Positions 1-50,986 are shown, counted from the stretch's first letter. The stretch is DNA of 64,000 bases from Lobosporangium transversale (GCF_002105155.1 NW_019029019.1:310001-374000); one strand, 5' to 3'. A program made the numbers and translations. The notes: generated by a model not told the origin, from the sequence alone.

Positions 1-2611
1 ACATCTTTTGAACGATCACAACCACATTGAAGCTATGCCCTTTATGAGATCTAGACCCACTATGATCCTTGGAGGTGGGGGTACTGGCAAGACGGAGTGT
101 ATGCTGGATATGATTGAGCAGCAACTGGGTATGGATGCAGACTATGACAACATGCAGCTCTATTTAGGAGCAACAGATTCGTTAGCCAACTGGTCATCGA
201 TGAGACTGTTAAAACGGGAGAGCATAACGGAAGAGAGCTTTAGGTTGGTATCGTTCACCAGTCTTCCATCTCTACTTGCAAAGCTCTACATGTCGAATAG
301 CGCCATACGCGGAAAGCTCTTTGTGGACCGGTACATCTTTAGGTCCGAATACATGGATGCCATGCCTGCAATGGTCCGCAGCATTGGCGCCGATGAGCTC
401 TACGATGCCATCCACGCGCGCATCGATATAGAGGCACAAAACAGAACTAGGTTCCTTAGGTCAGAGCACAAGACAGCGCACAAGGTGTACAAATCGATCA
501 AAGCATTGCATGGCCATATCGATGCTTACGATCTTCACGCACTCGTCAAACGAGACCCGCAACGATTAGTGGCTATGGCGTCGAAGATAGCACGCATCTA
601 CTTAGATGAGGTCCAAGATATATCATGGACAATGTGGTCCGTAATCGAGATAATGCTGTCTGCACGCACCTCGAGCGTGGTGTGTGCTGGTGATTTCACA
701 CAGCGACTTACACCAGGGATCTCGATCAATGGCATAAAGACGCTTATCTATAAGCACCTCCCCAAGAGTATGGAGATTGTTAGATATAAGATCAATTATC
801 GATCGGACCCCAGCATTATATCGCTCGCAAACCGTATCCAATCGTACACCCACATGAGAGAACACGCAATGGAACCGTCTCCCTATACTCAGGAAACTAG
901 CAACTCCGTGACACTGGTAGAGATACAGGACATCGAGCATGAAAATGTAGCCGATGTGTTGCGCTATATCGGAGTACCATCCAACAACTACAGAGCTGCG
1001 ATCGTCACATCGTCGTCATGGGCACACCGGCTTCGTGAGTCTTTGGGTAAATCTCACAATGTCTTTAGTGCTTACGAGTGTAAGGGTCTCGAGTTCGACC
1101 TTGTTGTGTGTTGGGATCTCTTCAACCCAAGCATGGGTGTAAAAACATCGACTCTAAGGCATAACATGGGAGCTGCCACCTTAGATAAGGGTAATATTGA
1201 GGAAGACGAGAACTTTGAGATATACTTAAACCATCTCTACGTAACCGTTACAAGGGCACGCAAGCATCTTATAATGGTCGTTCCACCGTGCGAGAGATCC
1301 AGCATTATCATCAAGGCGCTCGGAATAAGCGATATCATTCATTACAATGAGCTTCAGGAGTGTGGACCTCTGCCTGAAATCACCCTTCTAGTTGACGAGC
1401 TCAGTGTGTCTGACGAACTAAGAATGGCGATCGTGATGAGAGAGAGGGGATTGCTCCATCAGGCCCTCAACGTCTTTGAACAGTACGGCGACGCTGCACA
1501 AGCAGGGTTTACAAGAGCTCTAATTCACCGAAAAGAGCACAGGCTTCGCGGGGAAGATCACGAGATCCAGCTTTGTATTGCTGAGTGTTACGGAGTGATC
1601 GAGGAATTGCACCAGTCGACAGAGAGTGTTCTCAAAATCGAGGATGTAAAGCTATTCCTTGCCCAGGCACTGGTCGCTGATAAGCAGTATGCTGAAGCTT
1701 GTTTGCTTTACGAAGACCTGGAGATGGAAGATGAACTGGTCGCGTGTCTAATCGAGGCAGTCGAATCAAAGTCTGGAGATGTAATGCGGATACGATACCT
1801 AATACCCGAAAAAGCTGTAGCTATATGGGAGCATTTCAAGGACAACAATAGATACGCAAGATTCGTTGTTGCATTGATGCTTGCGTTTGAACCTCCATCT
1901 GTAGACCTAGTTCAGTCGATGATCTCGCACATTCCATCCAAGGCAGGGCTTATTATGATGCATAACTCTCTGGTAGAGGCCAATAAAAGTGTATCTCCCA
2001 TATGGGAAGTATTCCGAAGAAGAAAGTCGCTGCAGATTGGGCCCGGGTCAGGAAAGTTGGGGGAACTGACATTTTTAGAATGGAGTTCATTGCGACGCCT
2101 TGATGGCCGGCACGCTAACAAAGACTTGGGTTACATTATGTCTGCTCATTGCTTGCCAAAATATCAGTCGTCAATGGCATGTCTGTTTGTTGGGCCTAGA
2201 AACAGCAAGACCACCGACATCTTGTCACTCCATATCCAATCGGGTGCTATACTAAAGGCGTGTCGATCGCTGGAAGTGCCTTTGAAGCATGTGGCAATGA
2301 AGATGACTGAACTCTCGTGCTCCCTTTCAGATTTTATGGCACTCCATTCCCAAATACCGAGTGAAGAAGAGTCAAGGATGCACCTGCTTGCCGAGGCGTA
2401 CAAGATGCATAAGCTGGAGATGAGGGGTAGCGAGCATCAGCTCGCACTCTTTAGATGGTGTGATAAGATGAGCCGGGGTGCGGACATTATCGGGATTATC
2501 TGTACCATGCTTAGGGAGGATAAACAGATGCTGCTCGGCAGCTACAGACCAGGTAACACTGCAAACGCAACACAGAAAGCACTGCTTCGTGTGTTAAGCG
2601 AGAGGCGCTAG
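1..2611 (+). CDS. Dual-helicase (TRANK1-like) gene copy 1, 5'-truncated by the window edge; UvrD-like SF1A domain plus helical C-terminus visible
   Basis: Frame is open from base 2. Motifs ILGGGGTGKT (Walker A), IYLDEVQD (Walker B), AGDFTQ, NYRS, KGLEFD and LYVTVTRAR. Collinear with the C-terminal half of copies 2-4. Confidence 0.9.
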   Translation, partial: HLLNDHNHIEAMPFMRSRPTMILGGGGTGKTECMLDMIEQQLGMDADYDNMQLYLGATDSLANWSSMRLLKRESITEESFRLVSFTSLPSLLAKLYMSNSAIRGKLFVDRYIFRSEYMDAMPAMVRSIGADELYDAIHARIDIEAQNRTRFLRSEHKTAHKVYKSIKALHGHIDAYDLHALVKRDPQRLVAMASKIARIYLDEVQDISWTMWSVIEIMLSARTSSVVCAGDFTQRLTPGISINGIKTLIYKHLPKSMEIVRYKINYRSDPSIISLANRIQSYTHMREHAMEPSPYTQETSNSVTLVEIQDIEHENVADVLRYIGVPSNNYRAAIVTSSSWAHRLRESLGKSHNVFSAYECKGLEFDLVVCWDLFNPSMGVKTSTLRHNMGAATLDKGNIEEDENFEIYLNHLYVTVTRARKHLIMVVPPCERSSIIIKALGISDIIHYNELQECGPLPEITLLVDELSVSDELRMAIVMRERGLLHQALNVFEQYGDAAQAGFTRALIHRKEHRLRGEDHEIQLCIAECYGVIEELHQSTESVLKIEDVKLFLAQALVADKQYAEACLLYEDLEMEDELVACLIEAVESKSGDVMRIRYLIPEKAVAIWEHFKDNNRYARFVVALMLAFEPPSVDLVQSMISHIPSKAGLIMMHNSLVEANKSVSPIWEVFRRRKSLQIGPGSGKLGELTFLEWSSLRRLDGRHANKDLGYIMSAHCLPKYQSSMACLFVGPRNSKTTDILSLHIQSGAILKACRSLEVPLKHVAMKMTELSCSLSDFMALHSQIPSEEESRMHLLAEAYKMHKLEMRGSEHQLALFRWCDKMSRGADIIGIICTMLREDKQMLLGSYRPGNTANATQKALLRVLSERR

Positions 2612-3434
2612 CTTAGGCAGATCCACAAGCATAAATATCACAAGTGATCCACATCCTCTTAGAATAAAATATTTTGATTCCTTTTCCCCATGGTTTGGTA
2701 CAAATGTAACATTGTGAAGGTTTCGAGTTTTTATCTCAAGTTTCTTTTTTTTTTTTTCAACATGCTGGAGATGTGCTATCTGCTAGAGATTTGGCTATTT
2801 TGAGGTGTAGAATTCTGTTATGTTGCCTTAGAGTATATGCATAGGTTTATTTGTTTGGCCGACACACCATTTGCTATTTGCTCTGTGGTTCGTGCGCAGC
2901 GGTAGCCGAAATGGCGGTATCATCCATTTTTGTTAAAGTTGTAGGGGCTATAAAAGGCTTCAGATCCAGCTGCATAGCTACAAAGTCGTAGCACGAGTCT
3001 AACTATAGGCCTGATAATTTTATTTTTTGCACTTTTATCCTTCCCTTACAAAAATATAATCGCCAAAGATGATTTTATTGAAATATGTGCGCAACAGTGT
3101 GCAGATACTACTGCCGTCTAATTATTTTCTGTGTCATTTTCTACAGTCCTTTTTTTTTTTTTTTTTTTTTTTTTTGATCAAAAAATAACGATCAGAGCTC
3201 AATGGCGGGCTTCCTCAGCCCTTAAATCACCGTGTAACCAGGCCTCAACGGTGAATTCCTTTAGTATTTGACACATGATGTAATCGGTTGGTTCCCCAAA
3301 AAGCTGTTCTAGGCCTCAAACGTATACTCTCCGGAAATAACCAGATCTTAATGGTAGGTTGTTTAAATCATTACTACACGGTATGATTGATGAACTCCTT
3401 CGAATAGTATTCGCGAGCCTACTCTGCCTGTGCA

Positions 3435-3466
<32 letters not shown>

Positions 3467-5616: not shown

Positions 5617-8600
5617 ATGACCAAAACTGAAAAGAAAGAGGAGTCTTCCGAGGTCTTACGCGTTTCGATGGATTTACTATACGACACCCAAAAGTTGCAA
5701 GCTTTACTGGAGAAGGACCAGAAAATCAACTTGGGGAAAGGCAAGGTGGACACCTTTAAGAGGGATGGATACCAGTCTGTTAGTCTGTACACCAAAAGAC
5801 TTATAGACATGTATACATACGAATTTCAGATCGAAGCAGCAAAGGCGCTGTTTGGCAAGATTCCAGACGACTGCAAGCTCTGTAACCTCAGTCGCGTTAA
5901 AAATAACGCCTTTCGAGCCTTCACTGATGTCGAACTGAATGAAGACGATGGTGAGTTATATGGAGACGATGGCGAACTAAGTGGAGGCAATGGTGAATTA
6001 AATGGAGGCAGTGGTGGTGCTGACATACCCGGCGCAGAGGAGTGGGTCCTTATCGGAGAGCCAGAAATGTACAATTACAACGACGTAGTCGCAGCTGTTG
6101 GCACTAAGAGCTTTGGCGATGAAGCAGGCTCCAAGCGATACATCGGCTGCTTGAGCCACATTTCCAGAATCCCGCAAAGCAACTTGCGGCAATACATTTT
6201 TACATTCAACGCGCAAATATCTTCTTTACGAAACATTAAGGTACTGATGTGGGCGATTGATAATCTCACGTCCTATAAGCGCGTCGTGGGAAGCCTTTCC
6301 AATGAGGATGCGATGAAGTCAATACCGGAACTGTTCATGAAAGGCCCTGTGACAGACACTAGACCCTTTACGGAGAATACTGTAGACATCCAGGATGACG
6401 TGCTCGAGTCGATGAACCAATCGCAAAGAGTTGCGATATCAAGAGCAATTCAGGAAGATGGGGGCAAGGTGGTGTTGATTCAGGGCCCTCCTGGATGTGG
6501 TAAATCGACGGTGATCGCCGAAATTGTGCGTTTACTTATCCCCCATGGCCAAGATAGCGCGAGAACACAGGTCCTGGCGTGTGCACAGTCGAATGTTGCT
6601 GTGGTAGATCTTGCATATAAGTATGTTACCATTAAAAAACCTAAGGACAATTTTGAGTGTGTCATGGATATGAGGCCATCCAAGATCACCGATAGCCACA
6701 AGAGAGCTGTGCTCGAGCCATTTACAATTACCACCCGATATCATCAAGTTGTCAATGCTGTGTTGCATACCATCATACGCGTCTTTGGGCGTACCCCCAC
6801 CGCGTGTCACGGGAGCACGACAAAGGATGGAGTTAAGAATATTGTGGCCGCCGATTTCAATGCATGTGTGGAAAGTGGCTTAATTGAACTACTTCCTCCG
6901 AGAGCCCACACTCTCCTTATGTTTACGGAGGTCACGCTCAGCGATTCTGAGCTGCCGTCTACCGATTTGGCCCAGGTGAAGTCCCTTGTTTTAGGAATGC
7001 GCAACGAACTAGAGCTCTTTTTTGAGCCCGTTGACCTCAAGTCGTTGCTCGAACTTTGCAGCGTTAATCAGCATACCGGCACATCGCCACGCTCTAAACC
7101 CATATCTATTTATGGGTGGGTGAAGCAAGCTCTCCTTAACACAGCGTCTGTTGTATTTTGCACGATTAATATCGGGATATCGTTGACTTATAATAGACGC
7201 TTGGACAGTCTAGCGTATATCGTTGTCGATGAGGCAGGACAGGCACTAGAGCCAGATGTGGCTGCACTAATGTGTGTTGATTCGTACTTTCGTCGCCTTA
7301 TCTTGGTTGGAGACCCAAAGCAGCTCCCAGGATATTGCGCATCCAACCGAGGCAAGCGCGAGATGATGGACCGCAGTCTTATGGAGCGTCTCCAGACATA
7401 CCGACTGTGCCATTTTACACTTCTCAATGTACAATACCGCATGCATCAAGACATCTGTGCATTCATATCTCAAACCTTCTACGATAACGAGTTGACCTCC
7501 GACGAATCAATCCACAACAGGAGCCCTGTTACAACACTACCAGCAATTATGCCCGTTATGTTTCTGGGGTCCCGGACGAGCCAGTCGAAAATCACGAAAA
7601 CGAGTGTGGTGAATATCGACGAGGCTAGGTACATTGTTGCCCATGTATTCAACGTGCTGCTGTTGAACAGAAAGAAGCCAACCCCTTCGGGCAATCCTGC
7701 GTCTGAATCAGTATCTTATGCTGACATGGCGAAACTCCCACAAAAGACAAGGGTGCGACAACCCGCAGTGGCTGCCACGCTATCCATTGGAATTATATGT
7801 ATCTACAAGGCACAGGCCAGCGTTATACGTTATCTAATCGACAAGATGCTACCCCAAAAAAGATCTGGATTCAATATAATCGTTAACACCATAGATTCGT
7901 TCCAGGGACAGGAGTGTGACGTTATCTATGTGGCACTTACAAGAACTACACAGATTAACGATTTTATGCGCGATCCTAACCGTGTTAACGTCGCAATTTC
8001 GAGAGCTCGACACCACCTAATTGTAGTGGGGGATGCAAATCTTTCGCTGACAGGCGAACAAGACGTCTCGCCATCCTACTGGCATAGCCTGTGTGTGGAC
8101 AGGGAACCCGTGATTATTGGTCCAGACTACATGAGGAACGTACCGCTGTATGATGGGCCGGAACTCATAGCTAGTGCCAAAGCTAAGGAAATACCAGCAA
8201 CACCGGCCATAATTAAAAAGCTCATAGCTAAAGGCCTGGCTACTACAACCCCCATTTGGACCATCCGCTACGAGAGGCTCATGATAGGCCCGAAAATCCC
8301 GCAAGGAAGCCATATACTCGAATATGTCGTGCAAACACTAGCTTGTGGAGACTTTGACGCGGGAGATGGCGGTAGAACAACTAGACCTTTATTCCGCAAA
8401 CAAAAAGGAGCATCCCTGCTCTTCGTTACCTCGGTGTGTGATACAGTGTGTCTTGCGTGGACCGTGGTGGTGCACGGGCACCGCCAGGCCATTGAGCTTC
8501 TTGGCATCGGAGACAAAACATTCATCGAGAAGAAGGTCTGGCCGCTGCTCCGCCACGACATCAAAGAGCAACCAGAATGGAAGCTCTCTGCGTCTATGAG

Positions 8601-11340
8601 TCTGTGGTCGTCTGGTATAAGCGTAGACCTCTCCAAGGATATGCCAAAAAGTACGTCGTTGCTCTATGTACCCGTAGATGTAGATGTTCCTGCCGCTGAC
8701 TTATTGGCGGATGTACCAGAGAATGGACACCTTTTGACCGATCACAGCCACGTTAAAGCCATGTCCTTTATGAGGTCCAGACCCATTATGATCCTTGGAG
8801 GTGGGGGTACTGGCAAGACGGAGTGCATGTTGGATATGATCGAGCAGCAACTGGATATGGATACAGACTATGACAACATGCAGCTCTATTTGGGAGCGAC
8901 AGATTCGTTAGCCAACTGGTCGTCGGTGAGGCTATTAAAGCGAGAGAGTATAACAGAACAGGGCTTTAAGATGGTATCGTTCACCAGTCTTCCATCTCTA
9001 CTCACAAAGCTATACATGTCAAACAGCAGCATACGCGGGAAGCTCTTTGTAGACCGGTACATCTTTAGATCTGAATATATGGATGCCATGCCTGCAATGG
9101 TCCGCAGTATTGGCGCCGATGAGCTCTACGATGCTATCCTCGCACGCATGGATATAGAGGCACACAACAGTACTAGGTTCCTTAGGTCAGAGCACAAGAC
9201 AGCGCACAAGGTGTACAAATCGATCAAAGCATCGCGTGGCGACATCGACGCTTACGACCTTCACGCACTCGTTAAGCGAGACCCGCAACGAGTAGTGGCT
9301 ATGGCGTCGAAGATAGCACGCATCTACCTAGATGAGGTCCAGGATATATCGTGGACAATGTGGTCTGTAATCGAGATAATGCTGTCTGCAGGCGCCTCAA
9401 GCGTGGTGTGTGCTGGTGATTTCACACAGCGACTTACACCAGGGATTTCGGTTAATGGCATAAAGACGCTTATCTATAAACACCTCCCAAAGAGTATGGA
9501 GACCATAAAGTTTAAGACAAATTATCGATCAGACCCTAGCATTATATCGCTCGCCAATCGTATTCAATCGTACACACGCATGAGGGAACATGCAATGAAA
9601 CCGTCCCTCTACCCTCAGGAAAGCAGCAACTCCGTGGCACTGGTAGAGATACAGGACATCGAGCATGAAAATGTAGCCGATGTGTTGCGCTATATCGGAG
9701 TACCATCCAACAACTACAGAGCCGCGATTGTCACATCGTCGTCATGGGCACATCGGCTTCGTGAGACTTTGGGTAAATCTCACAATGTCTTTAGTGCTTA
9801 CGAATGCAAGGGTCTCGAGTTCGACCTTGTTGTGTGTTGGGATCTATTCAACCCAAGCATGGATGTAAAAACATCGACTCTAAGGCGTAACATGGGAACT
9901 GCCGCGTTGGATAGAGGCAATATTGAGGGAGATGAGAACTTCGAGATATACTTGAACCACCTCTACGTAACCGTTACAAGGGCACGCAAGCATCTTATAA
10001 TGGTCGTCCCACCGTGTGATAGAACCAGTATTATGATCAGGGCACTCGGGATTAACGATGTCGTCCATTACAGCGAGGTCCAGGAGCGTGGACCTCTGCC
10101 TGAAATCACCCTTCTAGTTGACGAGCTCAGTGTGTCTGACGATCTAAGAATGGCGATTGTAATGAGAGAGAGAGGATTGCTCCAGCAGGCCCTCAACGTC
10201 TTTGAGCAGAATGGCGACGCTGCACAAGCAGGGTTTACAAGAGCTCTAATCCATCGAAAAGAGCACAGGCTTCGCGGGGAAGATCACAAGATCCAGCTTT
10301 GTATTTCTGAGTGTTACGGAGTGATCGAGGCATTGCAGCAGTTGGCGGGCAGTGTTCTCAAAATCGAGGATGTAAAGCTATTCCTTGCCCAGGCACTGGT
10401 CGCTGATAAACAGTATACCAGAGCATGTTTTCTCTACAAGGAATTGGAGATGAAAGATGAACTGGTCACATGCCTGATCGAGGCAGTCGAATCAAAGTCT
10501 GAAGATGTAGCGCAGCTACGAGGCCTAGTATCCGATCAAGCTGTAGCTATATGGGAGCATTTCAAGGACAACAATAGATACGCAAGATTTGTTATTGCGT
10601 TAATGCTGATATTCAAATCTTCGCCTGTAGATATAGTCCAGTCGATGCTCTCGCACATTCCATCCAAGACAGGGCTTATTATGATGCATAACTCTTTGGC
10701 AAAGGCCAATATAAGTATATTCCCCGTATGGGAAGTATTCCGAAGAAGGAAGTCGCTGCAGATCTGGTCTGAATCGCAAGAGCCGGAGGAACTGACATTT
10801 TTAGAATGGAGCTCATTACGACGCCTCGATAGCCAACACTCCAACGAAGATTTGGTTTTCATTACGTCTGCTAGCTGCTTCCCAGAATCCCAACCACCAA
10901 TGGCATGCCTGTTCGTTGGGCCTAGAAACAACAAGACTACAAACACCTTGTCGCTTCATATCCAATCGGGTGCTATGCTAAAGGCGTGTCGATCATTGGA
11001 AGTGCCCATGAGGCACGTGGCAACGAGGATGAGAGAGCTCTCGTGCCCTCTGGTAGATTTTATGACACTCCATTCCCAAATACTGAGCGAAGAAGAGTCA
11101 AGGATGCACCTGCTTGCTGAGGCGTATAGGGCACATAAGCACGAGATGAGAGGTAGCGAGCATCAGCTCGCACTCTTTAGATGGTGTGCTAAGATGAGCG
11201 GGGGTACGGACATTATCGAGGTTATCTGCATCATGCTTAGGGAGGACAAACAGATGCTGCTCGGCATCTACAGCCCAGATAACACTATAAACGCAACACA
11301 GAAAGCACTGCTTCGTGTGTTAAGCGAGAGGTGTTTTTAG
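5617..11340 (+). CDS. Dual-helicase gene copy 2 (1907 aa): UPF1/Sen1-like SF1B helicase + UvrD-like SF1A helicase + TPR-like helical tail
   Basis: SF1B motifs MNQSQ, IQGPPGCGKST, CAQSNVAV, VVDEAGQ, LVGDPKQLP, QYRMH, TIDSFQGQE and NVAISRAR. Second helicase GGGGTGKT, YLDEVQD, AGDFTQ, NYRS, KGLEFD and YVTVTRAR. Uninterrupted ORF. Confidence 0.92.
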   Translation: MTKTEKKEESSEVLRVSMDLLYDTQKLQALLEKDQKINLGKGKVDTFKRDGYQSVSLYTKRLIDMYTYEFQIEAAKALFGKIPDDCKLCNLSRVKNNAFRAFTDVELNEDDGELYGDDGELSGGNGELNGGSGGADIPGAEEWVLIGEPEMYNYNDVVAAVGTKSFGDEAGSKRYIGCLSHISRIPQSNLRQYIFTFNAQISSLRNIKVLMWAIDNLTSYKRVVGSLSNEDAMKSIPELFMKGPVTDTRPFTENTVDIQDDVLESMNQSQRVAISRAIQEDGGKVVLIQGPPGCGKSTVIAEIVRLLIPHGQDSARTQVLACAQSNVAVVDLAYKYVTIKKPKDNFECVMDMRPSKITDSHKRAVLEPFTITTRYHQVVNAVLHTIIRVFGRTPTACHGSTTKDGVKNIVAADFNACVESGLIELLPPRAHTLLMFTEVTLSDSELPSTDLAQVKSLVLGMRNELELFFEPVDLKSLLELCSVNQHTGTSPRSKPISIYGWVKQALLNTASVVFCTINIGISLTYNRRLDSLAYIVVDEAGQALEPDVAALMCVDSYFRRLILVGDPKQLPGYCASNRGKREMMDRSLMERLQTYRLCHFTLLNVQYRMHQDICAFISQTFYDNELTSDESIHNRSPVTTLPAIMPVMFLGSRTSQSKITKTSVVNIDEARYIVAHVFNVLLLNRKKPTPSGNPASESVSYADMAKLPQKTRVRQPAVAATLSIGIICIYKAQASVIRYLIDKMLPQKRSGFNIIVNTIDSFQGQECDVIYVALTRTTQINDFMRDPNRVNVAISRARHHLIVVGDANLSLTGEQDVSPSYWHSLCVDREPVIIGPDYMRNVPLYDGPELIASAKAKEIPATPAIIKKLIAKGLATTTPIWTIRYERLMIGPKIPQGSHILEYVVQTLACGDFDAGDGGRTTRPLFRKQKGASLLFVTSVCDTVCLAWTVVVHGHRQAIELLGIGDKTFIEKKVWPLLRHDIKEQPEWKLSASMSLWSSGISVDLSKDMPKSTSLLYVPVDVDVPAADLLADVPENGHLLTDHSHVKAMSFMRSRPIMILGGGGTGKTECMLDMIEQQLDMDTDYDNMQLYLGATDSLANWSSVRLLKRESITEQGFKMVSFTSLPSLLTKLYMSNSSIRGKLFVDRYIFRSEYMDAMPAMVRSIGADELYDAILARMDIEAHNSTRFLRSEHKTAHKVYKSIKASRGDIDAYDLHALVKRDPQRVVAMASKIARIYLDEVQDISWTMWSVIEIMLSAGASSVVCAGDFTQRLTPGISVNGIKTLIYKHLPKSMETIKFKTNYRSDPSIISLANRIQSYTRMREHAMKPSLYPQESSNSVALVEIQDIEHENVADVLRYIGVPSNNYRAAIVTSSSWAHRLRETLGKSHNVFSAYECKGLEFDLVVCWDLFNPSMDVKTSTLRRNMGTAALDRGNIEGDENFEIYLNHLYVTVTRARKHLIMVVPPCDRTSIMIRALGINDVVHYSEVQERGPLPEITLLVDELSVSDDLRMAIVMRERGLLQQALNVFEQNGDAAQAGFTRALIHRKEHRLRGEDHKIQLCISECYGVIEALQQLAGSVLKIEDVKLFLAQALVADKQYTRACFLYKELEMKDELVTCLIEAVESKSEDVAQLRGLVSDQAVAIWEHFKDNNRYARFVIALMLIFKSSPVDIVQSMLSHIPSKTGLIMMHNSLAKANISIFPVWEVFRRRKSLQIWSESQEPEELTFLEWSSLRRLDSQHSNEDLVFITSASCFPESQPPMACLFVGPRNNKTTNTLSLHIQSGAMLKACRSLEVPMRHVATRMRELSCPLVDFMTLHSQILSEEESRMHLLAEAYRAHKHEMRGSEHQLALFRWCAKMSGGTDIIEVICIMLREDKQMLLGIYSPDNTINATQKALLRVLSERCF

Positions 11341-24595: not shown

Positions 24596-24598
24596 AGT

Positions 24599-36067: not shown

Positions 36068-38082
36068 AGGACTTATCTTTGTCATACAATAGCTCTGGTA
36101 TTAACAGATACGAGAATTAAATAAAATAATAAAAGATGAAAATGAAAACATATTCTAGAACTCTAAGTATCCTCAAGTTGCCTTCAATAGATATTAGACA
36201 CCAATATGTCTCTCCTCAGTTCGTTTGTCACCTCTCCTCTTCATTATAAAGGTAGGTTAAACTGCTTGTAATTGAATTAAAAGTAACCATGAGAGACTGC
36301 TTTATTGTATAACAATCATTGCTTCTTCCTTCTTCCTTCTTCCTTTACTTTATGACATAGAATATGAAGATGTTCGATGATGCACCTGTCATTAACCATT
36401 TTTTTACTTTTTTTTAGAGGATCAGAACCATGGTGAGAAATGCGAATCCCAGGAGCAGTTATTTTCACCAGTACATCAAAGCCCAAAGATCTTTTTTCAC
36501 CTTTGAACTTGATTAATATATGTTTTAGTGATGGAGCATGTATGATTTATACCCTGATACAAAAGATGTTTTTTTTTTGGCAAATACATCGGTTCACATG
36601 GCGAAAACCATTGATCTCAAGAGCCAAAAAGTAAAACCCGAGAACCTGATGCAAGGACAGAATTCTGTGCCGCCTTCTGCCTAAATGAGACTTCATTGGT
36701 TACACCAGCAATTTTGATATCGCTTTTGAAGGCGAGGAATAGTTGGATTCGAGATTTTAAGGGCTGCGGCTCCGATACATGGAGTTCTGCTGCTTCTCGG
36801 GCACCAGTAGTTCCAAGAAGGGCTTTTACCGAGTGGATGGAACAGGTGATTATTGACTATACTCTACCTATTTCAAGTATTTGTAGCAATTTCTTCATTT
36901 ACCATTCCCAATCTTTGCCCCAGCATCCGCAGCTCGCCCCTTCTCATTCTGATGTGCTCTCGTCATCGGTGGTAGAGTCATCAGAAATGCTTACTACTGA
37001 GTCATCATCGCCCAGTACCAATATATCCCGTTGCCAGAATGGTAAGAGCGAGTCATCATACTCTACTCCAAAGAACTTGAACAAGTAGCAGAAGTGACTT
37101 GAAGGCCGGATCAAAGCACAGTGAGTAGAGGGCTCAATCAATCTAAGGTGATAGGATTCAGCGAGGCGTTGTATTTCATTATGTTGAGGCTGTCAATCTT
37201 TATGACGGTTACGACGCCGCTATTGGCGGATCTTAGCCTGAGTCATGCTGCGCCGCAAAGGATGCGCTTATTTTTCGGGTCTACGAGCAGAGTCTGCGCC
37301 TCCAAAATGTATTAAGAGCAACATCTATATCTGAAGAGAGAGCGAACACATACTACTCCAACAACCCAGGATGATCGTAATATCATGTCGATACTTGTTT
37401 TTGGGATTTCTGATGTTCAGAGAACGCATCGAACCTTTGGTCAAAACTTTATACAACCACATTGATGCAGATGATTGTTTGCACGGGTTGTTAGGCTTTT
37501 AGGCATGTTTCATCCTGTCATCCTGCTGTACCACCTTCAAATTATGCGCATATGTGCATACACATTTGACATTTTAAAATTAATCGGATATTCAAGGAAT
37601 TGTTCAAGTATTTACCGAGTAAGGCATTGAAGGAGAAGGATAAATGTATCATATGGTAGTACATCAAGTATAGCAATGCCAACACAAACATAATAAAGAG
37701 TGTTCGTAAGCAGTGCTGTGCTGGATTGCAATAACACTGAATATGTTGTGTGCACCCTGTGATCTTGTGGAACCAAATTGTTCATCTTATTTATGCCATT
37801 AATGCATTTGAAGAGCTGCATTGCCAAGAGTAAGGAAATCACAGAGCCTGAGTTTTGTAGAAATGTATCATGTTGATACTTTGGCAATGGTCTAATGACT
37901 ATTACATTGAAACCTTAAACATCAATGTATAAAGGCAAAGAACAGCTGTGTGAAATATTTATGGGACTCAAAATTGTATAAAGGGCCTATCATTTCTCTC
38001 AACTTCAAAACTAATTACCCATACACCTATTCCATTCGATAATTAAGTAAAAGCCATCTTACTTCATCTGTTTGTCGCCATT

Positions 38083-39423
38083 ATGTCTCAAGATCAGTTC
38101 CATCACTATATACCACGCTTCATATTGAAGAGCTTCTCTGATAACTTCCAACTGAAACCTTCAAGTATTTTCTCACCAAATGCCTCAGGTAACTTCACAG
38201 AAGTGCCTTTTTCAAAAGGGCCAGTGGGGAGCAAGGGAAATAGTGGAGGGGATAGCGTGGGAAGCAACAGGAAAGGTAACAGAAGGAAAAGCAGTGGGAT
38301 CAACAAAAGAGATAGCAGAGAAGGCGATAAAGAAGGCGGTCATGAAGCCAAGGAGCAAAATCCTATTATTGATTTTCCTATTTATGTGTATCGAGCGCTG
38401 GAGAAAACAATCGCACAGAGCGACGTTAGCAGAGTGTATGGTCTTCAGAACATGTACCAGGACATTGCTGAAGTCGATAGTATGAGGTTTGAGAAGGAGC
38501 TCGCCAAGTTGGAATGCACCTCTGCGACGTTCATTCATAAGATCCGATCTGGCGAAGAACTACTGTTGACGCGGACTCAACTAGCAGACTTCAAGAGGTT
38601 CCTAGCCATCATGACATACAGGAGTGAGTGCCGAAGGGAACAGTATTACGAGTGTCGATTTGATATTATGACACTTCTATCGATTCGAAAACACATGTCC
38701 CAAAACAATATTGACAGAGTTCAAGACGTATGGTTCGAGAATCTCAAATGGATCATCAAGACCCCTCACGACGAAATCATTAAGGAGAGCTCAGCTCTCG
38801 ATCCGAAAGGCGTCAAGACTCCCATGGATACTATGTTTGCTTTGAGCAAATATAAAGGACCTATTCACGTTGCAGAACTTATGGACTATTATAACTTAGT
38901 GTGCAACTACGTGTGTGTCTGGCAAGCGGAAGAAGGGTCTGAATTTATCCTAACCGACAAGTGCTTTGGTGCGTTCGAAGGTGACATGGGTGTATGCTTC
39001 CACAACTTCTATGTTGTGTCGCCGAAATATGTCGTCGTTCTTGTGAACCGTCTTTACATGTGGGACCTTATGAAGACCACGGGTCTCCGGAAGTCGTGGT
39101 TTGGGGATGAGCTCCATGCCAATCCAGATGTTATCTATACGAAAAAGCCTATGAGAGGTGCGGAAGACTTTACTCCAACAGACGTGTTCAAATACAAAAG
39201 GATTGTTGTCCCAAAAGAGAAAGTGTATCTCTGTAACAGCATCCTTTTGGATGCTAGTCCCAAGTATATAACATACAAGTCCGATATCTCCATGTACAGA
39301 TCTTTAAGATACTACGACAAAACTAAGGAAGATCTGTTCACCTTCAAATATGGTTACCATGTCCTAAAGCGCGAAGTATTAGCTAATCTCAAGGCAAAGG
39401 TGAATAGAACACATTGCTCCTAG
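38083..39423 (+). CDS. DUF4238-family protein, copy 1 (446 aa)
   Basis: N-terminal QFHHYIPRFILKSF, QNMY, EKELAKLE, EFILTD and VSPKY match the DUF4238 signature (HHYVPxFxL..F / NxY / E..L..LE / FITSD / PxSP). Confidence 0.82.
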   Translation: MSQDQFHHYIPRFILKSFSDNFQLKPSSIFSPNASGNFTEVPFSKGPVGSKGNSGGDSVGSNRKGNRRKSSGINKRDSREGDKEGGHEAKEQNPIIDFPIYVYRALEKTIAQSDVSRVYGLQNMYQDIAEVDSMRFEKELAKLECTSATFIHKIRSGEELLLTRTQLADFKRFLAIMTYRSECRREQYYECRFDIMTLLSIRKHMSQNNIDRVQDVWFENLKWIIKTPHDEIIKESSALDPKGVKTPMDTMFALSKYKGPIHVAELMDYYNLVCNYVCVWQAEEGSEFILTDKCFGAFEGDMGVCFHNFYVVSPKYVVVLVNRLYMWDLMKTTGLRKSWFGDELHANPDVIYTKKPMRGAEDFTPTDVFKYKRIVVPKEKVYLCNSILLDASPKYITYKSDISMYRSLRYYDKTKEDLFTFKYGYHVLKREVLANLKAKVNRTHCS

Positions 39424-40586
39424 GCCCTTCTCGAAGGACTTTTCTAAGACATTACATTTTTTCCTCCTCTCCTCATAAACAAAGGTTGTAGTTGTTGAAA
39501 ACAGCTTGGTGAAAATAAAATAATAGGCCTTTCAGCCATTGCTAAAAAAGAACCAGTACCAAAGTTTAGGAGAGGGTCAATTAAGTTATAGAGTCAGTTT
39601 TTTTTTTTTTTAGTGTTTCTTCCTGAATGGTACAGCTTTGCAGCGTGGGCCAACTTCAGAACAACTTCGAGATCATCAGGTTCCTCTGCATTCCTTTAGT
39701 GAAATTTGGCCTGTCGCCATCAAGCATTCCCTTTGATATTTATCCGAGGTTAACCATTCATTTCTGTAAGTCAGTGACTATGGTGATAAGTATATTAGGC
39801 GCTACAATAGATATTCTCTTAAGAGAGCAAGAAAACGTAAAATATGGTCACATATATGAGCCTACAACTAATAGAGGATAGAAGAAAAGAAAAGACTACA
39901 AGAGTCCCAGATGGGTAGCGCAGTGCCAGACAGTGCCACTTCTCTCGTATTGAGGAACAGTTGATTAAATAAAAAGCGAAACAATGTCAGGTAAACAGTT
40001 GTCGACCATTGCTTAATGTCATACAAAACACCAGTAGATGGAATAAACAAGGTGATTGGCACAAAATAGGAGGAAAGGCCCAGGCTCTACTTTTTATCCC
40101 CCGAAAAAATACAAGCTGCTATCTCACCACATGCATACAGGTTGTGTTCTAATGTCCTTATTTAATAAACACACCAACACTAAGATGGCTCCAAGCAAAA
40201 AATCTAAGCACGGAAATGGGTTTAAATACACACAGATGCTGTGCTTGTTTGTTTGTATATGCCAAAGTAATCAAGGTGCTGTAGCACTTGAAAATGTGGG
40301 CTTTTCTTGCTTCGCCAAATCTTATTTTTTTACAGATGACTTTTGACCCTATAAAAACCTGCTACATGTAACTTGTTATATCCCTGTCGCCCCTTTCATC
40401 TCGCTCCCTTCATTTCTTTAGCTTGTTCTCTATTCTTCATACGGGGTCAGGGGATCATCACCACACTTACATCGATACACATTCAACACAAGGCACGTCA
40501 ACAACTACTTCGATTTCTAAAAGTAAGCAGCCCACATCAAACACAGACCCTGTTCATCGATCAAAGTCAGCTCTTTCAGTACTCAC

Positions 40587-40637: not shown

Positions 40638-41366
40638 ATGAATCCCGCGAATTTGCCAGCCCAAGCTAATCGCACCAGAATTGGTTCGTTTTACAGCAGG
40701 GTCTGGAGGCTAGTTGACTTAGATGACTTATTGGAGCAAGACTATCCAACCTGGGCAGGAAATGTGATCCGAGCAGAACGCAATCGACGCATACATATGG
40801 GAACAGAACCGCCAACAAATTTTGAAAGAGTTTTAATCCTGGATTTCGCTGAAGAGCTCACTAATGATTTATTCGAACCAGGTGATAACCAACCGGAACA
40901 GGCAGAGTTTGATGGTGAATATCTTCATACGCACGTTGCTGCTGTAGCATCATACGACATCGTCTATAATAATACTCTTTGTAGGAATGATAAAAAGCTT
41001 TCCAAAGCAAACAAAAATGTCAAGGGGCGTTTCGTCTGCGGAACTGAGAGATGCGGGAACCGTGAATGGGAGTCATCTGTTATCGCCACCAACCTGAGGT
41101 TTTCTAAGGTTGGCAACTCCTACAAGGCCACGCTTCATGCCCAGCAGTGCAATCGATGCGAAAAATATGCAGAGCCTATTGTTGAGGTGGAAACCTATGT
41201 TGAACGGGTAGTCTACATGTTGGACCTATGGATGGGTGTTAGAGAAAGGGAGAAGCCCTCTGAAACGAATAGAAGAGCCAGACGTCCTCATGATAGGTCT
41301 CGCTGCCATGGCTGTAAAGTAGGCGAGTGCCCAAATGTAACAAGAGGAAGGAGGAGGAGGTCATGA
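40638..41366 (+). CDS. zf-3CxxC protein, copy 2 (242 aa)
   Basis: GRFVCGTERC..EWESS, QQCNRC and PHDRSRCHGCKVGEC; paralog of 35285. Confidence 0.88.
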   Translation: MNPANLPAQANRTRIGSFYSRVWRLVDLDDLLEQDYPTWAGNVIRAERNRRIHMGTEPPTNFERVLILDFAEELTNDLFEPGDNQPEQAEFDGEYLHTHVAAVASYDIVYNNTLCRNDKKLSKANKNVKGRFVCGTERCGNREWESSVIATNLRFSKVGNSYKATLHAQQCNRCEKYAEPIVEVETYVERVVYMLDLWMGVREREKPSETNRRARRPHDRSRCHGCKVGECPNVTRGRRRRS

Positions 41367-42986: not shown

Positions 42987-44297
42987 ATGAACCCCACGAA
43001 TTTACCTGAGCAAGCCTCCCGTTCCATAATTGGTTCATTTTACAGCAAGGTCTGGAGGGTAAACAGGCATGACTTGAATCATTTGTCGGTGAAGAAATAT
43101 CCGACTTGGGCAAGACGAGTGATCCATGCTGAACGCAGTCGACGCAAGAACAATGAAACAGATGAACCAACAGCCGCTGAAAAGAAAATAGTTCTGGATT
43201 TCGGTGAAGGAATCAGTGTGCAACTGTTCCAACCAAGTGGCAATCAACAAGAGCCAGCCAATATCCAGCAACCTCAGCCAAGCGAGAAGCAACAAGAGCC
43301 AGTCGATATCCAGCAGCCACAGCCAAGTGAAAATCAACAAGGGTCAGTTAATAATCAGCAATCCCAACCAAGTGAGAAGCCAGAAGGACCAGTTAATGAT
43401 CGGCAACCCCTGACAAGTGAGAAGCAACAAGGAGCAGTTAATAATCAGCAAACTCAGCCAAGAAAGAAGAAAAGAGGATCAGTTAAGAAGCAGCAATCCC
43501 AACCAAGTGGGAAGCAACAGGGACCAGACAATAATCAGCAATCTCAACCAAATGAGAAACAACAAGGATCAGTTAAGAACCAGCGACCCCAACCAAGTGG
43601 GAAGCAACAAGGATCAGTTAATAATCAACAATCCCAACCAAGTGAGAAGCAGAAAGGATCGATCAATAATCGGCAACCTCAGCTAGGGAAGCAACAAGGA
43701 TCAGTTAATAAGCAGCAATCCCAACCAAGTGATAATCAACAAGAACCAGTCAATGATCAGCAACTGTCCATCGAACGGGAAAAGGAGGAGTTTGATGGTA
43801 AATATCTTCATACACATGTTGCAAATGAAGCATCATATTATATCGCCTACGACGAAACTCTCTGCAGGGATGATATCAGGATTTTATGCAAAAAAAAAGA
43901 TATAAAAAATATACCCGTGTGGGGACACTTTGTCTGCAAAACAAAGAAGTGCAAGGGACGTGAATGGAAGTCATCTGTTATCGCCACCAACCTGAGGTTT
44001 TCTAAGCTTGGCAAATCCTACAAGGCCACGCTTCATGCCCAGCAGTGCAGTCGATGCGGAAATTATGCAGAGCCTATTGTTGAGGTGGAAAACTATGTTG
44101 AACGGGTAATCTCCAGATTGGACCGGTGGATGGGTGTTAAAAGACATACAGGAGACAAAGAAGAGAGAAAAAAATCCAAACGTCCTCATGATATGTCTCG
44201 ATGTCATGGATGCAAAGTAAGAGAATGTCCATACAATGGGGAAGAGGAGGAAGACGAGCGTCCAGAGATATTTTTCAGATTTTTAAATTCGAAATAA
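42987..44297 (+). CDS. zf-3CxxC protein, copy 3, with an internal 12 x 15-aa Q/N/S/P-rich repeat (436 aa)
   Basis: Same N-terminal domain and zinc finger (FVCKTKKC, QQCSRC, PHDMSRCHGCKVREC) as its paralogs. Confidence 0.88.
   Translation: MNPTNLPEQASRSIIGSFYSKVWRVNRHDLNHLSVKKYPTWARRVIHAERSRRKNNETDEPTAAEKKIVLDFGEGISVQLFQPSGNQQEPANIQQPQPSEKQQEPVDIQQPQPSENQQGSVNNQQSQPSEKPEGPVNDRQPLTSEKQQGAVNNQQTQPRKKKRGSVKKQQSQPSGKQQGPDNNQQSQPNEKQQGSVKNQRPQPSGKQQGSVNNQQSQPSEKQKGSINNRQPQLGKQQGSVNKQQSQPSDNQQEPVNDQQLSIEREKEEFDGKYLHTHVANEASYYIAYDETLCRDDIRILCKKKDIKNIPVWGHFVCKTKKCKGREWKSSVIATNLRFSKLGKSYKATLHAQQCSRCGNYAEPIVEVENYVERVISRLDRWMGVKRHTGDKEERKKSKRPHDMSRCHGCKVRECPYNGEEEEDERPEIFFRFLNSK
43230..43766 (+). repeat. 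45-bp coding minisatellite, 12 units, consensus QPSEKQQGSVNNQQS
   Basis: Units counted in the translation; one unit is 14 aa. Confidence 0.9.
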
Positions 44298-45724: not shown

Positions 45725-46763
45725 ACCGATTTCGGCTTTACTCAAGAGGCCAGCCTTGGAGAACTCAAGTATTGATTTTATGGCCCCTGGTCCTCGATCC
45801 TTGGGATTTTATTCACCAAGTCATCAGGTGAAAATGATCTCGTTCCCTGGAATTAATTGGCCCGTAAAGAAAGTAGCTAATCGTGTAAGTAGCTGGCCTG
45901 TTTCTTTGCAAAGAACGCTGTATAGCCAACAGGAGAACAGCAAATAGTCACTAACATTGCTTTACTCCTTTCCCTCTTTTCTCTTTAGCACACTGCCTTT
46001 GTAAGTATACCTCACATATCTCTGCAACCTCCGCCTCTGAATAACGAAGTTTTAACAATCTTCCCTCTTTCTCCCTCCCTCACAAAAGGATGAAGGCGTT
46101 GCAGTCGCAACATATAATACTCCAAGCGCTCCTGTCGAGGTCAATGGTGGCACCTTCAAGTCTACACTGGAAGGCTCTACTCTAGACGGTATATCAGGAC
46201 GTGAAGATGAGTTCTCCAATTTCATCATGAATATAATAACCAAACCCTCGCATACATTGGTCATCAGTGGAAACTCTGATATCTGGCTTGGGGCCCTTGG
46301 CACTTCACGTAGCAGTGAGCCAAGTGGTGCTGATTCCTCCAAGACTATAACTGTCACCCATCACTTTACGAGGCTTGAACAACCTTCCGAACATAGAGCA
46401 TGTGAGCCTAGTGAGCCTCACTAAAGATGCTGACTCGGGTGTCACTACGCTGGTAGCAAAGATCATATTCATAACTCTTCTCAGCTTAATTTGAGATTAG
46501 GAGACTCTGTATTTAATATGCTCAATGATAATGGAGACTTGGTAGGAGTCGCCAAAATCCCAGATCTATATTTGGCTATAGGTGACAGCTTTGTGACAGC
46601 TACCGCCACGTTCGCAGATTCCGATGCCTACAATACCTTGACAACCAAGAGTAATACTTTCACAATTGCAGGTTTTGAGGGTTCCGCGAAGCATTCCTAC
46701 CTGGCCAAAGCGTTGTGTGCTATTAGATCCCCATTTACACTCCCCAAGCTTGAAACTGTCTAA
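45725..46763 (+). pseudogene. DUF3712/Tag1-like gene remnant with two apparent frameshifts (5' boundary uncertain)
   Basis: Segments FSNFIMNIITKPSHTLVISG, TLRGLNNLP, NSSQLNLRLG..F, IPDLYLAIG and TIAGFEGS..YLAKAL..FTLPKL lie in three different frames between 46090 and 46763. Confidence 0.55.
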
Positions 46764-48799: not shown

Positions 48800-49190
48800 A
48801 TGACATCAACTGAGGAAAGACTTCAGACATTTCATTCCGCCAATTTGGATGGGCCACCAGCTCCGACATCAGATATGTAATATATTGAGGCTCGGTTTGA
48901 TGGCCAAACCCAACGGTACACCATCCTCTGGAGCGACATTTGTCTGCGTACAAGCGGTTCATATAAAGAAAGGATAAGTAGTTCTATCCTTCCTCATGGA
49001 CGGCAATTTAAAAACAGTACGGATAACAATATTAACATTAATGACAAGAGACCTCTACGGTTACCCTTGTGACAGCAACCGTCTTGGTGGTATTTATGTA
49101 AATCATTCCAGTATTGCGAAAATAAATGTAGTATAACACCATTCTGGATCCGTGCCTTGCCTGGCATCATACTGGATATATTTATTTCTC
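48800..49190 (+). pseudogene. Remnant of an N-terminal header domain typical of Mortierellaceae repeat/NLR-like proteins
   Basis: MTSTEERLQTF...*YIEARFDGQTQRYTILWSDI, then PFWIRALPGIILDIF after a probable intron. Internal stop; no downstream body. Confidence 0.45.
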
Positions 49191-49596: not shown

Positions 49597-49639
<43 letters not shown>

Positions 49640-49663
49640 CGTTTTTATCTATTTACCGTCATC

Positions 49664-50986
49664 ATGTCTCAAGATCAGTTTCATCACTATATACCACGTT
49701 TCATACTGAAGAGTTTCTCTGAATATTTCCAGCTGAAACCCTCAAGCATTTTCTCACCGAATGCCTCAGGCGGCTTTACATTAGAGTCCCTTGAAAATGG
49801 CCCTGTGAAGAGCAAGGGAAATAACGGAGGAGGTAGCAGGAAAAGCAACAAGAAAGGCAAAAAAATAGGCAAAAAAAAGAAAAGCAGTGGTAGTAACATA
49901 AGAAGCAGCAGGGAAGACGACAGCAAAGGTAGCCATGGAGAGGAGCAAGATCCGATCATGGAATATCCAATTAATGTTTACCAAGTAATGGAGGAAACAG
50001 TCACACAGAGCGACGTTGGCAGAGTGTATGGTGTTCAGAACATGTACCAGGACATTGCTGAAGTCGATAGTATGTGGTTTGAGAAGGAGCTTGCCAAGTT
50101 GGAGTGCACCTCTGCGACGTTCATTCACAAGATCCGATCTGGCGGAGAGCTACCGCTGACGCGGACTCAACTAGCAGACTTCAAGAGGTTCTTAGCCATC
50201 ATGATGTACAGGGGGGAGCACCGGAGGGAGCAGTATTACGAGTGTAGGTTCGACGTTAGGACGCTACTATCAGTTCGGAAACATATGTTTCAAAACAACA
50301 TTGAAAGAGTTCAAGACGTGTGGTTCGAGAACCTCAAATGGATCATCAAGACCCCTCATGATGAAATCATTAAGGAAGGCACAAAAATCATTCCCTTGAT
50401 TCCAATGAATAAATACAATGGGCCTATCCACATCGCGGAACTTCTGGACTATTATCACATGATGTGCAACTACATGTGTGTTTGGCAAGCAGAAGAAGGG
50501 TCTGAATTTATCCTAACCGACAAGTGCTTTGGTGCGTTCGAAGGCGAGAATGGCATTCACTTCCACAATTTCTATGTTGTGTCTCCGAAATATATGGTCG
50601 TTCTTGTGAACCGTCTTTACATGTGGGACCTTGTGAAGACCATGGGTCTCCGGAAGTCGTGGTTTGGGGATGAGCTCCATGCCAATCCAGATGTTATCTA
50701 TACGAAAAAGGCTATGAGAGGTGCGGAAGACTTTACTCCAACAGACGTGTTCAAATACAAAAGGATTGTTGTCTCAAAAGAGAAGGTGTATCTCTGCAAC
50801 AGTATCTTCTTGGATGCAAACCCCAATTATATAACATACAAATCCGATATCTCCATGTACAAGTCCTTAAGATACTACGACAAAACTAAAGAAGATCTGT
50901 TCACCTTCAAATATGATTACCATGTCCTGAAGCGCAAAGTATTAGCCAATCTCAAGGCAGAGATGAACAGGACACATTGTTTCTGA
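49664..50986 (+). CDS. DUF4238-family protein, copy 2 (440 aa)
   Basis: Close paralog of 38083-39423 with the same HHYIPRFILK start. Confidence 0.82.
   Translation: MSQDQFHHYIPRFILKSFSEYFQLKPSSIFSPNASGGFTLESLENGPVKSKGNNGGGSRKSNKKGKKIGKKKKSSGSNIRSSREDDSKGSHGEEQDPIMEYPINVYQVMEETVTQSDVGRVYGVQNMYQDIAEVDSMWFEKELAKLECTSATFIHKIRSGGELPLTRTQLADFKRFLAIMMYRGEHRREQYYECRFDVRTLLSVRKHMFQNNIERVQDVWFENLKWIIKTPHDEIIKEGTKIIPLIPMNKYNGPIHIAELLDYYHMMCNYMCVWQAEEGSEFILTDKCFGAFEGENGIHFHNFYVVSPKYMVVLVNRLYMWDLVKTMGLRKSWFGDELHANPDVIYTKKAMRGAEDFTPTDVFKYKRIVVSKEKVYLCNSIFLDANPNYITYKSDISMYKSLRYYDKTKEDLFTFKYDYHVLKRKVLANLKAEMNRTHCF

What the first reader, a model, noticed from the sequence alone, without database searches (positions are those of the whole stretch)
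1..50986. Candidate fungal antiviral/innate-immunity island: TRANK1-like dual helicases + RTP-like zf-3CxxC + DUF4238
Seen: about 51 kb in which all intact host genes belong to only three families (4 helicases, 3 zf-3CxxC, 2 DUF4238 plus 1 pseudogene). All are on the + strand, intronless in the CDS, and rapidly diverging. Established: zf-3CxxC is the domain of mammalian RTP4, an interferon-induced RNA-binding antiviral protein. UPF1-like SF1B helicases include the antiviral ZNFX1/MOV10/HELZ2, and TRANK1 is interferon-inducible. A DUF4238 protein is a described single-gene anti-phage system from P4-type satellite hotspots. Inference: the three form a clustered sensor/effector defence system against mycoviruses, transposons or endobacteria, resembling a bacterial defence island. 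I do not know of this combination being described.
Basis: partly seen in the sequence, partly recalled or inferred. Interest (0 to 1): 0.92.

Follow-up and report, generated by a model that had tools for sequence, protein, structure and literature searches.

The report
Fungal helicase–zinc-finger–DUF4238 tandem cluster
A soil fungus carries a run of repeated genes from three families that resemble animal and bacterial antiviral proteins; the helicase and zinc-finger genes share related upstream DNA, so they are likely switched on together as a defence locus, but no antiviral activity has been tested and the three-way grouping has not been seen in other species.

Summary
The cluster is real. 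It holds four twin-helicase genes (UPF1-like plus UvrD-like), three zf-3CxxC genes, two DUF4238 genes and one DUF4238 pseudogene, all on the + strand. The 51 kb also holds a 4.2-kb DIRS retrotransposon and two gene relics. Named paralogs suggest the array continues beyond the window (about 7 helicases, 6 DUF4238, 4 zinc fingers).

Two new findings. (1) Helicase and zinc-finger genes have homologous, colinear upstream DNA. Zinc finger 1 sits where the helicase 5'-UTR intron lies, followed by a relic helicase splice acceptor. This points to an ancestral DUF4238–promoter–zinc finger–helicase unit that was amplified and lost genes unevenly. (2) A RelE/ParE-like domain lies between the two helicase motors; the Arg and His that bacterial relatives keep are replaced.

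Against a conserved three-part system: the helicase was found in only four Mortierellaceae species, DUF4238 genes of the other three were not found on the helicase contigs, DUF4238 promoters are unrelated, all dN/dS values are below 1, and bacterial RelE-helicase relatives are not visibly in defence islands. Verdict: likely a lineage-specific defence-like locus with a co-regulated helicase/zinc-finger pair; function untested.

The parts
1..2611 (+). H1: 3' part of twin helicase, cut by the window edge
   Evidence: UvrD hits; identical to C-terminal 869 aa of 1912-aa P0227
4400..5616 (+). H2 upstream cassette: distal element, promoter/non-coding exon, predicted 5'-UTR intron ending just before the ATG
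   Evidence: homologous to upstream DNA of H3, H4, Z1, Z2; intron predicted from sequence, not shown by RNA
5617..11340 (+). H2: 1907-aa twin helicase (UPF1-like SF1B, RelE-like domain, UvrD-like SF1A, helical tail)
8254..8541 (+). RelE/ParE-like domain in H2 (about residues 880-975); bacterial invariant Arg and His align to C945 and K967
   Evidence: profile chain and alignment; predicted strand-helix order; fold not matched on its own
13983..19664 (+). H3: 1893-aa twin helicase
20667..24879 (+). DIRS-type retrotransposon: 118-bp inverted terminal repeats, gag-like ORF, RT/RNase H/Dam ORF, overlapping ORF read as tyrosine recombinase
   Evidence: recombinase label is from recall of DIRS layout, no Pfam hit
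25987..27255 (+). DUF4238 pseudogene, 85% identical in DNA to D1, directly followed by the H4 upstream cassette
27278..28483 (+). H4 upstream cassette with predicted 5'-UTR intron (about 28204-28483)
28534..34257 (+). H4: 1907-aa twin helicase
34433..35146 (+). Z1 upstream DNA, colinear homolog of the helicase upstream cassette
   Evidence: profile built from H2-H4 only: E 9e-64 (34433-34717), 2e-20 (34800-35146)
35186..35284 (+). Z1 5'-UTR intron, 99 nt, GT..AG
   Evidence: joint in one contig of run X5, not in DNA runs X1, X3, X7
35285..36067 (+). Z1: 260-aa zf-3CxxC protein
   Evidence: PF13695 E 8e-10; covered by X5 contigs
36347..36455 (+). relic of a helicase intron end, splice acceptor and first codons, about 280 bp after the Z1 stop
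   Evidence: E 1e-10 to the helicase upstream profile; alignment
38083..39423 (+). D1: 446-aa DUF4238 protein
   Evidence: PF14022 E 1e-22; covered by X5 contigs; model pLDDT 87
39836..40484 (+). Z2 upstream DNA, colinear homolog of the helicase upstream cassette
   Evidence: E 4e-13 for 40270-40484; weaker distal hits
40638..41366 (+). Z2: 242-aa zf-3CxxC protein
   Evidence: PF13695 E 8e-15
42987..44297 (+). Z3: 436-aa zf-3CxxC protein with twelve 15-aa Gln-rich repeats (43229-43764) in its linker
45780..46763 (+). spliced-looking, frameshifted DUF3712-like relic (fourth family)
   Evidence: weak Pfam hit E 0.15; frames
48809..49060 (+). short relic with stops and a frameshift, like a common Mortierellaceae N-terminal domain
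   Evidence: frames; family label recalled, no Pfam hit
49664..50986 (+). D2: 440-aa DUF4238 protein
   Evidence: PF14022 E 6e-22

Best explanation
This is a tandem gene array in which helicase and zinc-finger genes share homologous upstream DNA; it likely grew from one DUF4238–promoter–zinc finger–helicase unit and likely works as a lineage-specific RNA-surveillance defence locus. Shown: the domains, the shared upstream cassette, the relic helicase acceptor behind Z1, repeated duplication with conversion-like tracts and gene loss, a spliced Z1 transcript in one run. Inferred: one promoter type drives both genes; the zinc finger binds foreign (viral or retroelement) RNA as RTP4 does; the UPF1-like motor, the most variable part among paralogs, engages that RNA and the conserved RelE-like+UvrD module strips or stalls it, with the RelE-like domain acting as an RNA or ribosome-binding module rather than a nuclease; DUF4238 is a separately regulated effector that shares the locus and is not an obligatory partner.
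For: Upstream DNA of H2-H4 scores 83 and 105 against Z1 and Z2 (z 15 and 25 against 100 shuffles); 8 control stretches score 22-36 against H2-H4. A profile from helicase upstream DNA alone maps in order onto Z1 and Z2 flanks and resumes after the Z1 stop. Spacers between helicases keep pieces of DUF4238 upstream DNA. Named paralogs on a contig of the same length run D ... Z H D ? H ? H D by accession number, with a zinc finger directly before a helicase. Both motors keep their ATPase motifs. Mean paralog identity is 0.69 in the N-terminal part and 0.71-0.83 in most of the SF1B motor against 0.86 in the RelE-like domain and 0.90 in UvrD. A Dissophora gene model joins the tail of one helicase to the head of the next, so tandem copies arose there too. 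Family precedent: the 3CxxC finger is the antiviral core of RTP4 and binds viral RNA (passages of PMC8172065, PMC10470548); one DUF4238 protein protects E. coli from T7 (PMC9122126 passage); TRANK1 is interferon-induced (review passages PMC8278099).
Against: No functional or induction data. Full-length relatives: 5 of 138 hits, from three species, plus fragments from a fourth, whereas DUF4238 is spread across the family (99 hits). DUF4238 genes of Mortierella sp. AM989, Lunasporangiospora and Dissophora lie on contigs of other lengths than their helicases. Close zinc-finger relatives were found in one species only (2 hits). 0 of 6 metagenome DUF4238 loci (1.8-7.3 kb) carry a helicase or zinc finger. 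DUF4238 promoters are not homologous to the cassette (z -1.3 to 2.0), and Z3 only weakly (z 3.6). All pairwise dN/dS are below 1. Only 6 of 118 neighbours of bacterial RelE-UvrD relatives hit PADLOC, with no background set. The window DUF4238 proteins hit no PADLOC model. 3CxxC proteins also have non-immune roles (receptor transport; ZAR1, recalled).
Confidence: 0.5

Rival explanations
1. Mechanical by-product: three unrelated neighbours were caught in one duplicated segment in a recombination-prone region; only the helicase is selected for dosage, and promoter sharing is an accident of deletion with no joint function.
For: Units shed genes unevenly: DUF4238 beside helicases is broken in the window and apparently in two named copies; the zinc finger is missing from H2-H4 units and the helicase from the Z1 unit; no linkage seen in three other species; DIRS and two relics sit in the same stretch.
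Against: All three families keep several intact, diverged copies under purifying selection side by side; zinc-finger paralogs are old (dS 0.54-0.82), so the neighbourhood has lasted; all three families have independent immunity precedent.
Confidence: 0.3
2. Non-self (allorecognition or anti-endobacterial) locus: variable helicases and zinc fingers sense incompatible cytoplasm or bacteria and trigger local cell death through DUF4238.
For: Patchy distribution, tandem diversification and small sensor-effector clusters are typical of fungal non-self genes (review passages PMC10197012, PMC12881547).
Against: No NLR, HET, gasdermin or amyloid domain among the window proteins; the word helicase does not occur in either review; RNA-type domains fit an RNA target better.
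Confidence: 0.12
3. Housekeeping RNA quality control: the twin helicase is a Sen1/Upf1-like factor for transcription termination or ribosome rescue, amplified for reasons unrelated to infection.
For: The nearest SF1B hits are Sen1, Upf1 and IGHMBP2-type proteins; RelE folds bind the ribosomal A site (PMC11980606 passage).
Against: Absent from most Mortierellaceae searched and present in about seven diverging copies here, unlike single-copy housekeeping helicases.
Confidence: 0.08

Closest known systems
TRANK1/LBA1-type UvrD-like proteins, and eukaryotic twin helicases such as chytrid P0231 (Phlyctochytrium bullatum) and P0323
   Same: RelE-like domain followed by a UvrD-like motor and a helical tail; P0231 and P0323 also have the N-terminal AAA_11/AAA_12 motor
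   Different: No ankyrin or TPR Pfam hit; only about 24% identity to P0231/P0323; window family on a 2.7-long branch outside the group of long eukaryotic proteins in a quick tree. TRANK1 itself was not available; its motif and layout are recalled
Bacterial RelE/ParE-UvrD-TPR/ANK single-gene proteins (P0232-type; loci L007-L086)
   Same: Same order RelE-like, UvrD-like, repeats
   Different: They keep invariant Arg and His in the RelE-like domain and lack the SF1B motor; the window family has Cys/Leu and Lys there
Vertebrate RTP4 and the RTP family (zf-3CxxC, PF13695)
   Same: PF13695 domain above cut-off; expansion in tandem, as reported for Xenopus RTPs
   Different: Finger is C-terminal behind a helical N-domain and a low-complexity linker; no C-terminal membrane anchor seen in the sequences; RNA binding untested
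DUF4238 single-gene anti-T7 system of the E. coli P2 hotspot (Rousset et al. 2022, PMC9122126)
   Same: PF14022 domain
   Different: No PADLOC hit, no tblastn match in plasmids; a family-wide fungal expansion; activity unknown
Fungal immune micro-clusters (gasdermin-protease, het-S/nwd2) and the proposed fungal defence islands
   Same: Clustered, fast-turnover candidate defence genes
   Different: Different protein families; those clusters recur across many genomes, this one is so far seen in one species; fungal defence islands are put as a hypothesis in PMC10197012

Membership tests
UPF1-like SF1B helicase | AAA_11 + AAA_12 domains with intact Walker A/B and motif VI | tested here: met
   invariant columns
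UPF1-like SF1B helicase | Accessory zinc domain of UPF1/ZNFX1/MOV10 in the same chain (recalled) | tested here: inconclusive
   no Pfam hit in H2 residues 1-261; that part was not folded
TRANK1/LBA1 family | UvrD-like SF1A motor | tested here: met
   (Rep, Z 22.2, rmsd 4.5, 407 aligned)
TRANK1/LBA1 family | Ankyrin and TPR repeats | tested here: inconclusive
   no Pfam ANK/TPR hit; helical hairpins predicted after the motor
TRANK1/LBA1 family | Orthology to TRANK1 | tested here: inconclusive
   long branch, placement unresolved in a quick tree of 83 rows; TRANK1 not among the rows
RelE/ParE (BECR) superfamily | Fold and profile similarity | tested here: inconclusive
   window domain to eukaryotic relatives 91% (E 1e-6), those to bacterial domains 97% (E 3e-11), direct comparison not significant; bacterial domains hit ParE_like in 4 of 42 (best E 0.004) and PDB 7xbj (E 0.005); domain not folded alone
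RelE/ParE (BECR) superfamily | Conserved catalytic-type Arg and His | tested here: not met
   invariant in 42 bacterial domains; aligned to C945 and K967 in H2
RTP / zf-3CxxC | PF13695 with Cys/His ligands | tested here: met
RTP / zf-3CxxC | Binds viral RNA and restricts virus | not testable with these tools
   needs experiment
DUF4238 anti-phage system | PF14022 domain | tested here: met
DUF4238 anti-phage system | Match to the defence-system model | tested here: inconclusive
   no PADLOC family hit for 2 window and 3 other fungal proteins; whether that library holds a DUF4238 model was not checked
DUF4238 anti-phage system | Protects against virus | not testable with these tools
   needs experiment
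Multi-gene defence system / defence island | Same families linked in independent genomes | tested here: inconclusive
   no linkage seen in 3 other species or 6 metagenome loci, but contigs are 1-47 kb and searches word-limited
Multi-gene defence system / defence island | Shared regulation | tested here: inconclusive
   homologous upstream DNA for helicase and zinc finger, none for DUF4238; co-expression not measured

The most novel reading that the evidence does not exclude
A fungal defence island built from a homolog of an animal interferon-stimulated RNA binder, a twin helicase with a RelE-like module and a bacterial-type anti-phage effector, in which the ancestral unit makes either the zinc finger or the helicase from one promoter by choice of splice acceptor, so that the zinc finger acts as the missing zinc module of the UPF1-like motor in trans.
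Probability: 0.25. Interest if true: 0.88.

Novelty: new variant of a known kind. Interest (0 to 1): 0.58.

Why it matters
Antiviral immunity in early-diverging fungi beyond RNA interference is almost unmapped, and fungal defence islands are so far a hypothesis. This locus names three testable candidate families in one place and gives a sequence-level reason to test two of them together. The RelE-like domain before the UvrD motor also offers a mechanistic handle on the poorly understood TRANK1-type helicases. If the locus is only a duplication by-product, it remains a clear case of promoter capture between unrelated genes.

Tried and rejected
No whole genome was held, so synteny rests on accession order and contig lengths. 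Complex prediction of the SF1B part of H2 with Z2 gave no answer (score 0.00, alignments not used); it is no evidence either way. DUF4238 model (pLDDT 87): no PDB match by Foldseek or VIA (best Z 3.5), none by sequence, one weak viral-library hit, a phage protein (E 4e-4, TM 0.25). Fold searches with the 714-aa helicase model were filled by helicases, so the RelE-like part was not tested there. Three viral-contig scans (DUF4238 alignment, zinc-finger alignment, L006 DUF4238) found nothing. Run X5 gave no cover of the H4 3' end or Z2, and no listed holder is on record as RNA: uninformative. DNA depth over helicase and DUF4238 bins is several times the flank depth but is not a copy number. A fungal DUF4238 profile found nothing among 1,231 ORFs of 80 bacterial RelE-UvrD loci, at low sensitivity. 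RIP-like mutation: not seen in dinucleotide indices. Endogenous virus: rejected, no capsid or integrase gene and a spliced 5'-UTR intron. A motif found 6 times, once before each of H2-H4 and Z1-Z3 (0.05 expected), was designed from those sites and is not counted as independent. The Atlas tool did not complete. The 2003 Anantharaman and Aravind paper, recalled as describing RelE-helicase fusions, was not held. Exact helicase splice donors were not mapped beyond H4.
Full report
1. What is there. The window is fungal: the closest named relatives of all three families are Mortierellaceae proteins, the best from Lobosporangium transversale. Pfam confirms four helicase ORFs, three zf-3CxxC ORFs and two DUF4238 ORFs on the + strand, and a DUF4238 pseudogene with frame-breaking indels. 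H1 is cut by the window edge; its 869 aa equal the C-terminus of a 1912-aa protein. The interval also holds a DIRS retrotransposon and two decayed genes of other families. The statement about intact host genes therefore holds.

2. The array probably extends beyond the window. By accession number these run ORZ07527 DUF4238, 07532 zinc finger, 07533 helicase, 07534 DUF4238 (partial), 07536 helicase, 07538 helicase, 07539 DUF4238; 07528-31, 07535 and 07537 are unknown. With the window this gives about 7 helicases, 6 DUF4238 and 4 zinc fingers; one more zinc finger lies on another contig. Same contig, accession order as gene order, and the position relative to the window are inferences. The two named DUF4238 copies beside helicases look broken (short models; one ends like the window pseudogene).

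3. Helicase and zinc-finger genes share upstream DNA. Over the 700 bases before each start, H2-H4 score 83 against Z1, 105 against Z2 and 36 against Z3; DUF4238 genes and 8 control stretches score 22-36 against H2-H4. Against 100 shuffles z is 15, 25 and 3.6 for H2 with Z1-Z3, and -1.3 and 2.0 with D1 and D2. A profile built only from helicase upstream DNA maps in order onto 34433-34717 (E 9e-64) and 34800-35146 (E 2e-20), skips the Z1 gene, and resumes at 36347-36455 (E 1e-10) with the intron end, acceptor and first codons of a lost helicase; Z2 flanks match in the same order. Spacers between helicases keep pieces of DUF4238 upstream DNA, and both the pseudogene and D1 are followed by the cassette. 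The simplest history is an ancestral unit DUF4238, promoter and first exon, zinc finger, acceptor, helicase, amplified in tandem; left-hand copies lost the zinc finger and mostly the DUF4238, right-hand copies lost the helicase. The reverse, a zinc finger inserted into a helicase 5' region, fits too. Either way the two genes inherit one promoter type. This explains the interleaving mechanically and predicts co-regulation; it does not prove joint function.

4. Expression. Of 4 runs laid on 32500-41600, X5 (RNA by guess) covers 10 of 30 bins, over Z1 and D1, and holds a GT..AG joint 35185/35285 that the DNA runs lack. So Z1 is spliced and D1 is likely transcribed in one run of unknown condition.

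5. Helicase anatomy. Residues 256-810 are a UPF1-like SF1B motor and 1041-1470 a UvrD-like SF1A motor, both with ATPase motifs kept; the second folds like Rep/PcrA/UvrD. A search of 1.84 billion representatives with residues 848-1907 gave 255 hits, only 3 below 1e-30. The distant hits are long eukaryotic proteins, two of them twin helicases (P0231 from a chytrid, P0323), and many bacterial UvrD+TPR/ANK proteins. All carry a domain of about 100 residues before the motor. The window domain matches the eukaryotic one (91%, E 1e-6), which matches the bacterial one (97%, E 3e-11); the direct comparison is not significant, though the joint alignment is in register. The bacterial domains hit ParE-like, YoeB and Gp49 Pfam models weakly (ParE_like 4 of 42) and PDB 7xbj, whose matched part I recall as RelE-like. 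Their invariant Arg and His are Cys and Lys in H2, so nuclease activity is doubtful. In a quick tree of 83 motor cores the family is on a long unresolved branch (the careful search did not finish, and rows lacking a detectable Walker A or motif VI were left out). It works like the TRANK1-type module, but membership is not shown. An earlier unchecked scan note on a diatom RdRP fused to twin helicases with a RelE-like fold was read after the domain was spotted here and is a lead only.

6. Evolution. Pairwise dN/dS: helicases 0.27-0.39 overall, 0.16-0.30 in the RelE-like and UvrD parts, 0.35-0.59 in the N-terminal and SF1B parts; DUF4238 0.26; zinc fingers 0.51-0.59. Identical tracts of 75-279 bp change partner along the gene, as gene conversion would give. 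Variation among 7 paralogs is highest in the N-terminal half. This is purifying selection with a variable front end, not shown positive selection.

7. Other genomes. Full-length relatives are 5 of 138 hits: L. transversale, Mortierella sp. AM989 (71%), Lunasporangiospora (42%); two Dissophora fragments come, one joining the tail of a copy to the head of the next on a 4.3-kb contig. DUF4238 gives 99 hits across the family, often tandem; those of the three other helicase-bearing species lie on contigs of other lengths. Zinc-finger relatives: 2 hits, one species. 0 of 6 short metagenome DUF4238 loci have either partner. For bacterial relatives I scanned 118 neighbours from 30 of 80 loci; 6 hit PADLOC at 1e-15. 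Power is low, but nothing supports a conserved trio.

8. Literature. I saw passages, not whole texts, of PMC9122126 (DUF4238 from the P2 hotspot, anti-T7), PMC8172065 and PMC10470548 (3CxxC finger, RNA binding, RTP expansions), PMC8278099 (review; TRANK1 and interferon), PMC11980606 (RelE fusions; no helicase), PMC10197012 and PMC12881547 (fungal immune clusters; defence islands as hypothesis). Ten searches listed no paper on this combination, none holding TRANK1 with UvrD or with RelE; most subscription papers are not in the library, and supplements were not read.

9. Verdict. A defence role is the best single reading (0.5) because three families with separate immunity precedent persist as diverged intact copies in a high-turnover array and two share a promoter. 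A duplication by-product is the main rival (0.3). A conserved three-component system is not supported. Novelty: new variant of a known kind; interest 0.58.

Noticed in passing
L006:1-7281: Gene-dense, intronless, virus-like metagenome contig (KilA-N+GIY-YIG, HIRAN, galactosyltransferase-like, Cys-rich protein, GNAT) that carries a fungal-type DUF4238, 34% identical to D1. It may point to exchange of DUF4238 between Mortierellaceae and a large DNA virus; no hallmark gene confirms a virus.
   Followed up: partly
window 20667-24879: DIRS retrotransposon with open reading frames and 96% identical terminal repeats, so probably recent; the matching spacers after H1 and H2 lack it.
   Followed up: partly
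L007-L086: A widespread bacterial single-gene family RelE/ParE-like + UvrD + TPR/ANK with invariant Arg and His; no named NCBIfam family; the word helicase does not occur in a 2025 survey of multidomain RelE toxins (PMC11980606).
   Followed up: partly
L002, L003: Three and two tandem DUF4238 copies in short fungal metagenome contigs; near-consecutive locus tags show the same in several Mortierellaceae.
   Followed up: partly
window 43229-43764: Twelve 45-bp repeats give Z3 a long Gln/Ser/Asn-rich linker absent from Z1 and Z2.
   Followed up: no
window 51723-53744 (-): Intronless F-box protein of a typically expanded Mortierellaceae type closes the cluster on the right.
   Followed up: no
window 56132-56581 (-): 149-aa Cys-containing protein with a signal-peptide-like start and no credible family.
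   Followed up: no
proteins P0037, P0082: SF1B helicase relatives fused to an RdRP domain (PF05183), recalling an earlier scan note on a diatom RdRP-twin-helicase fusion.
   Followed up: no
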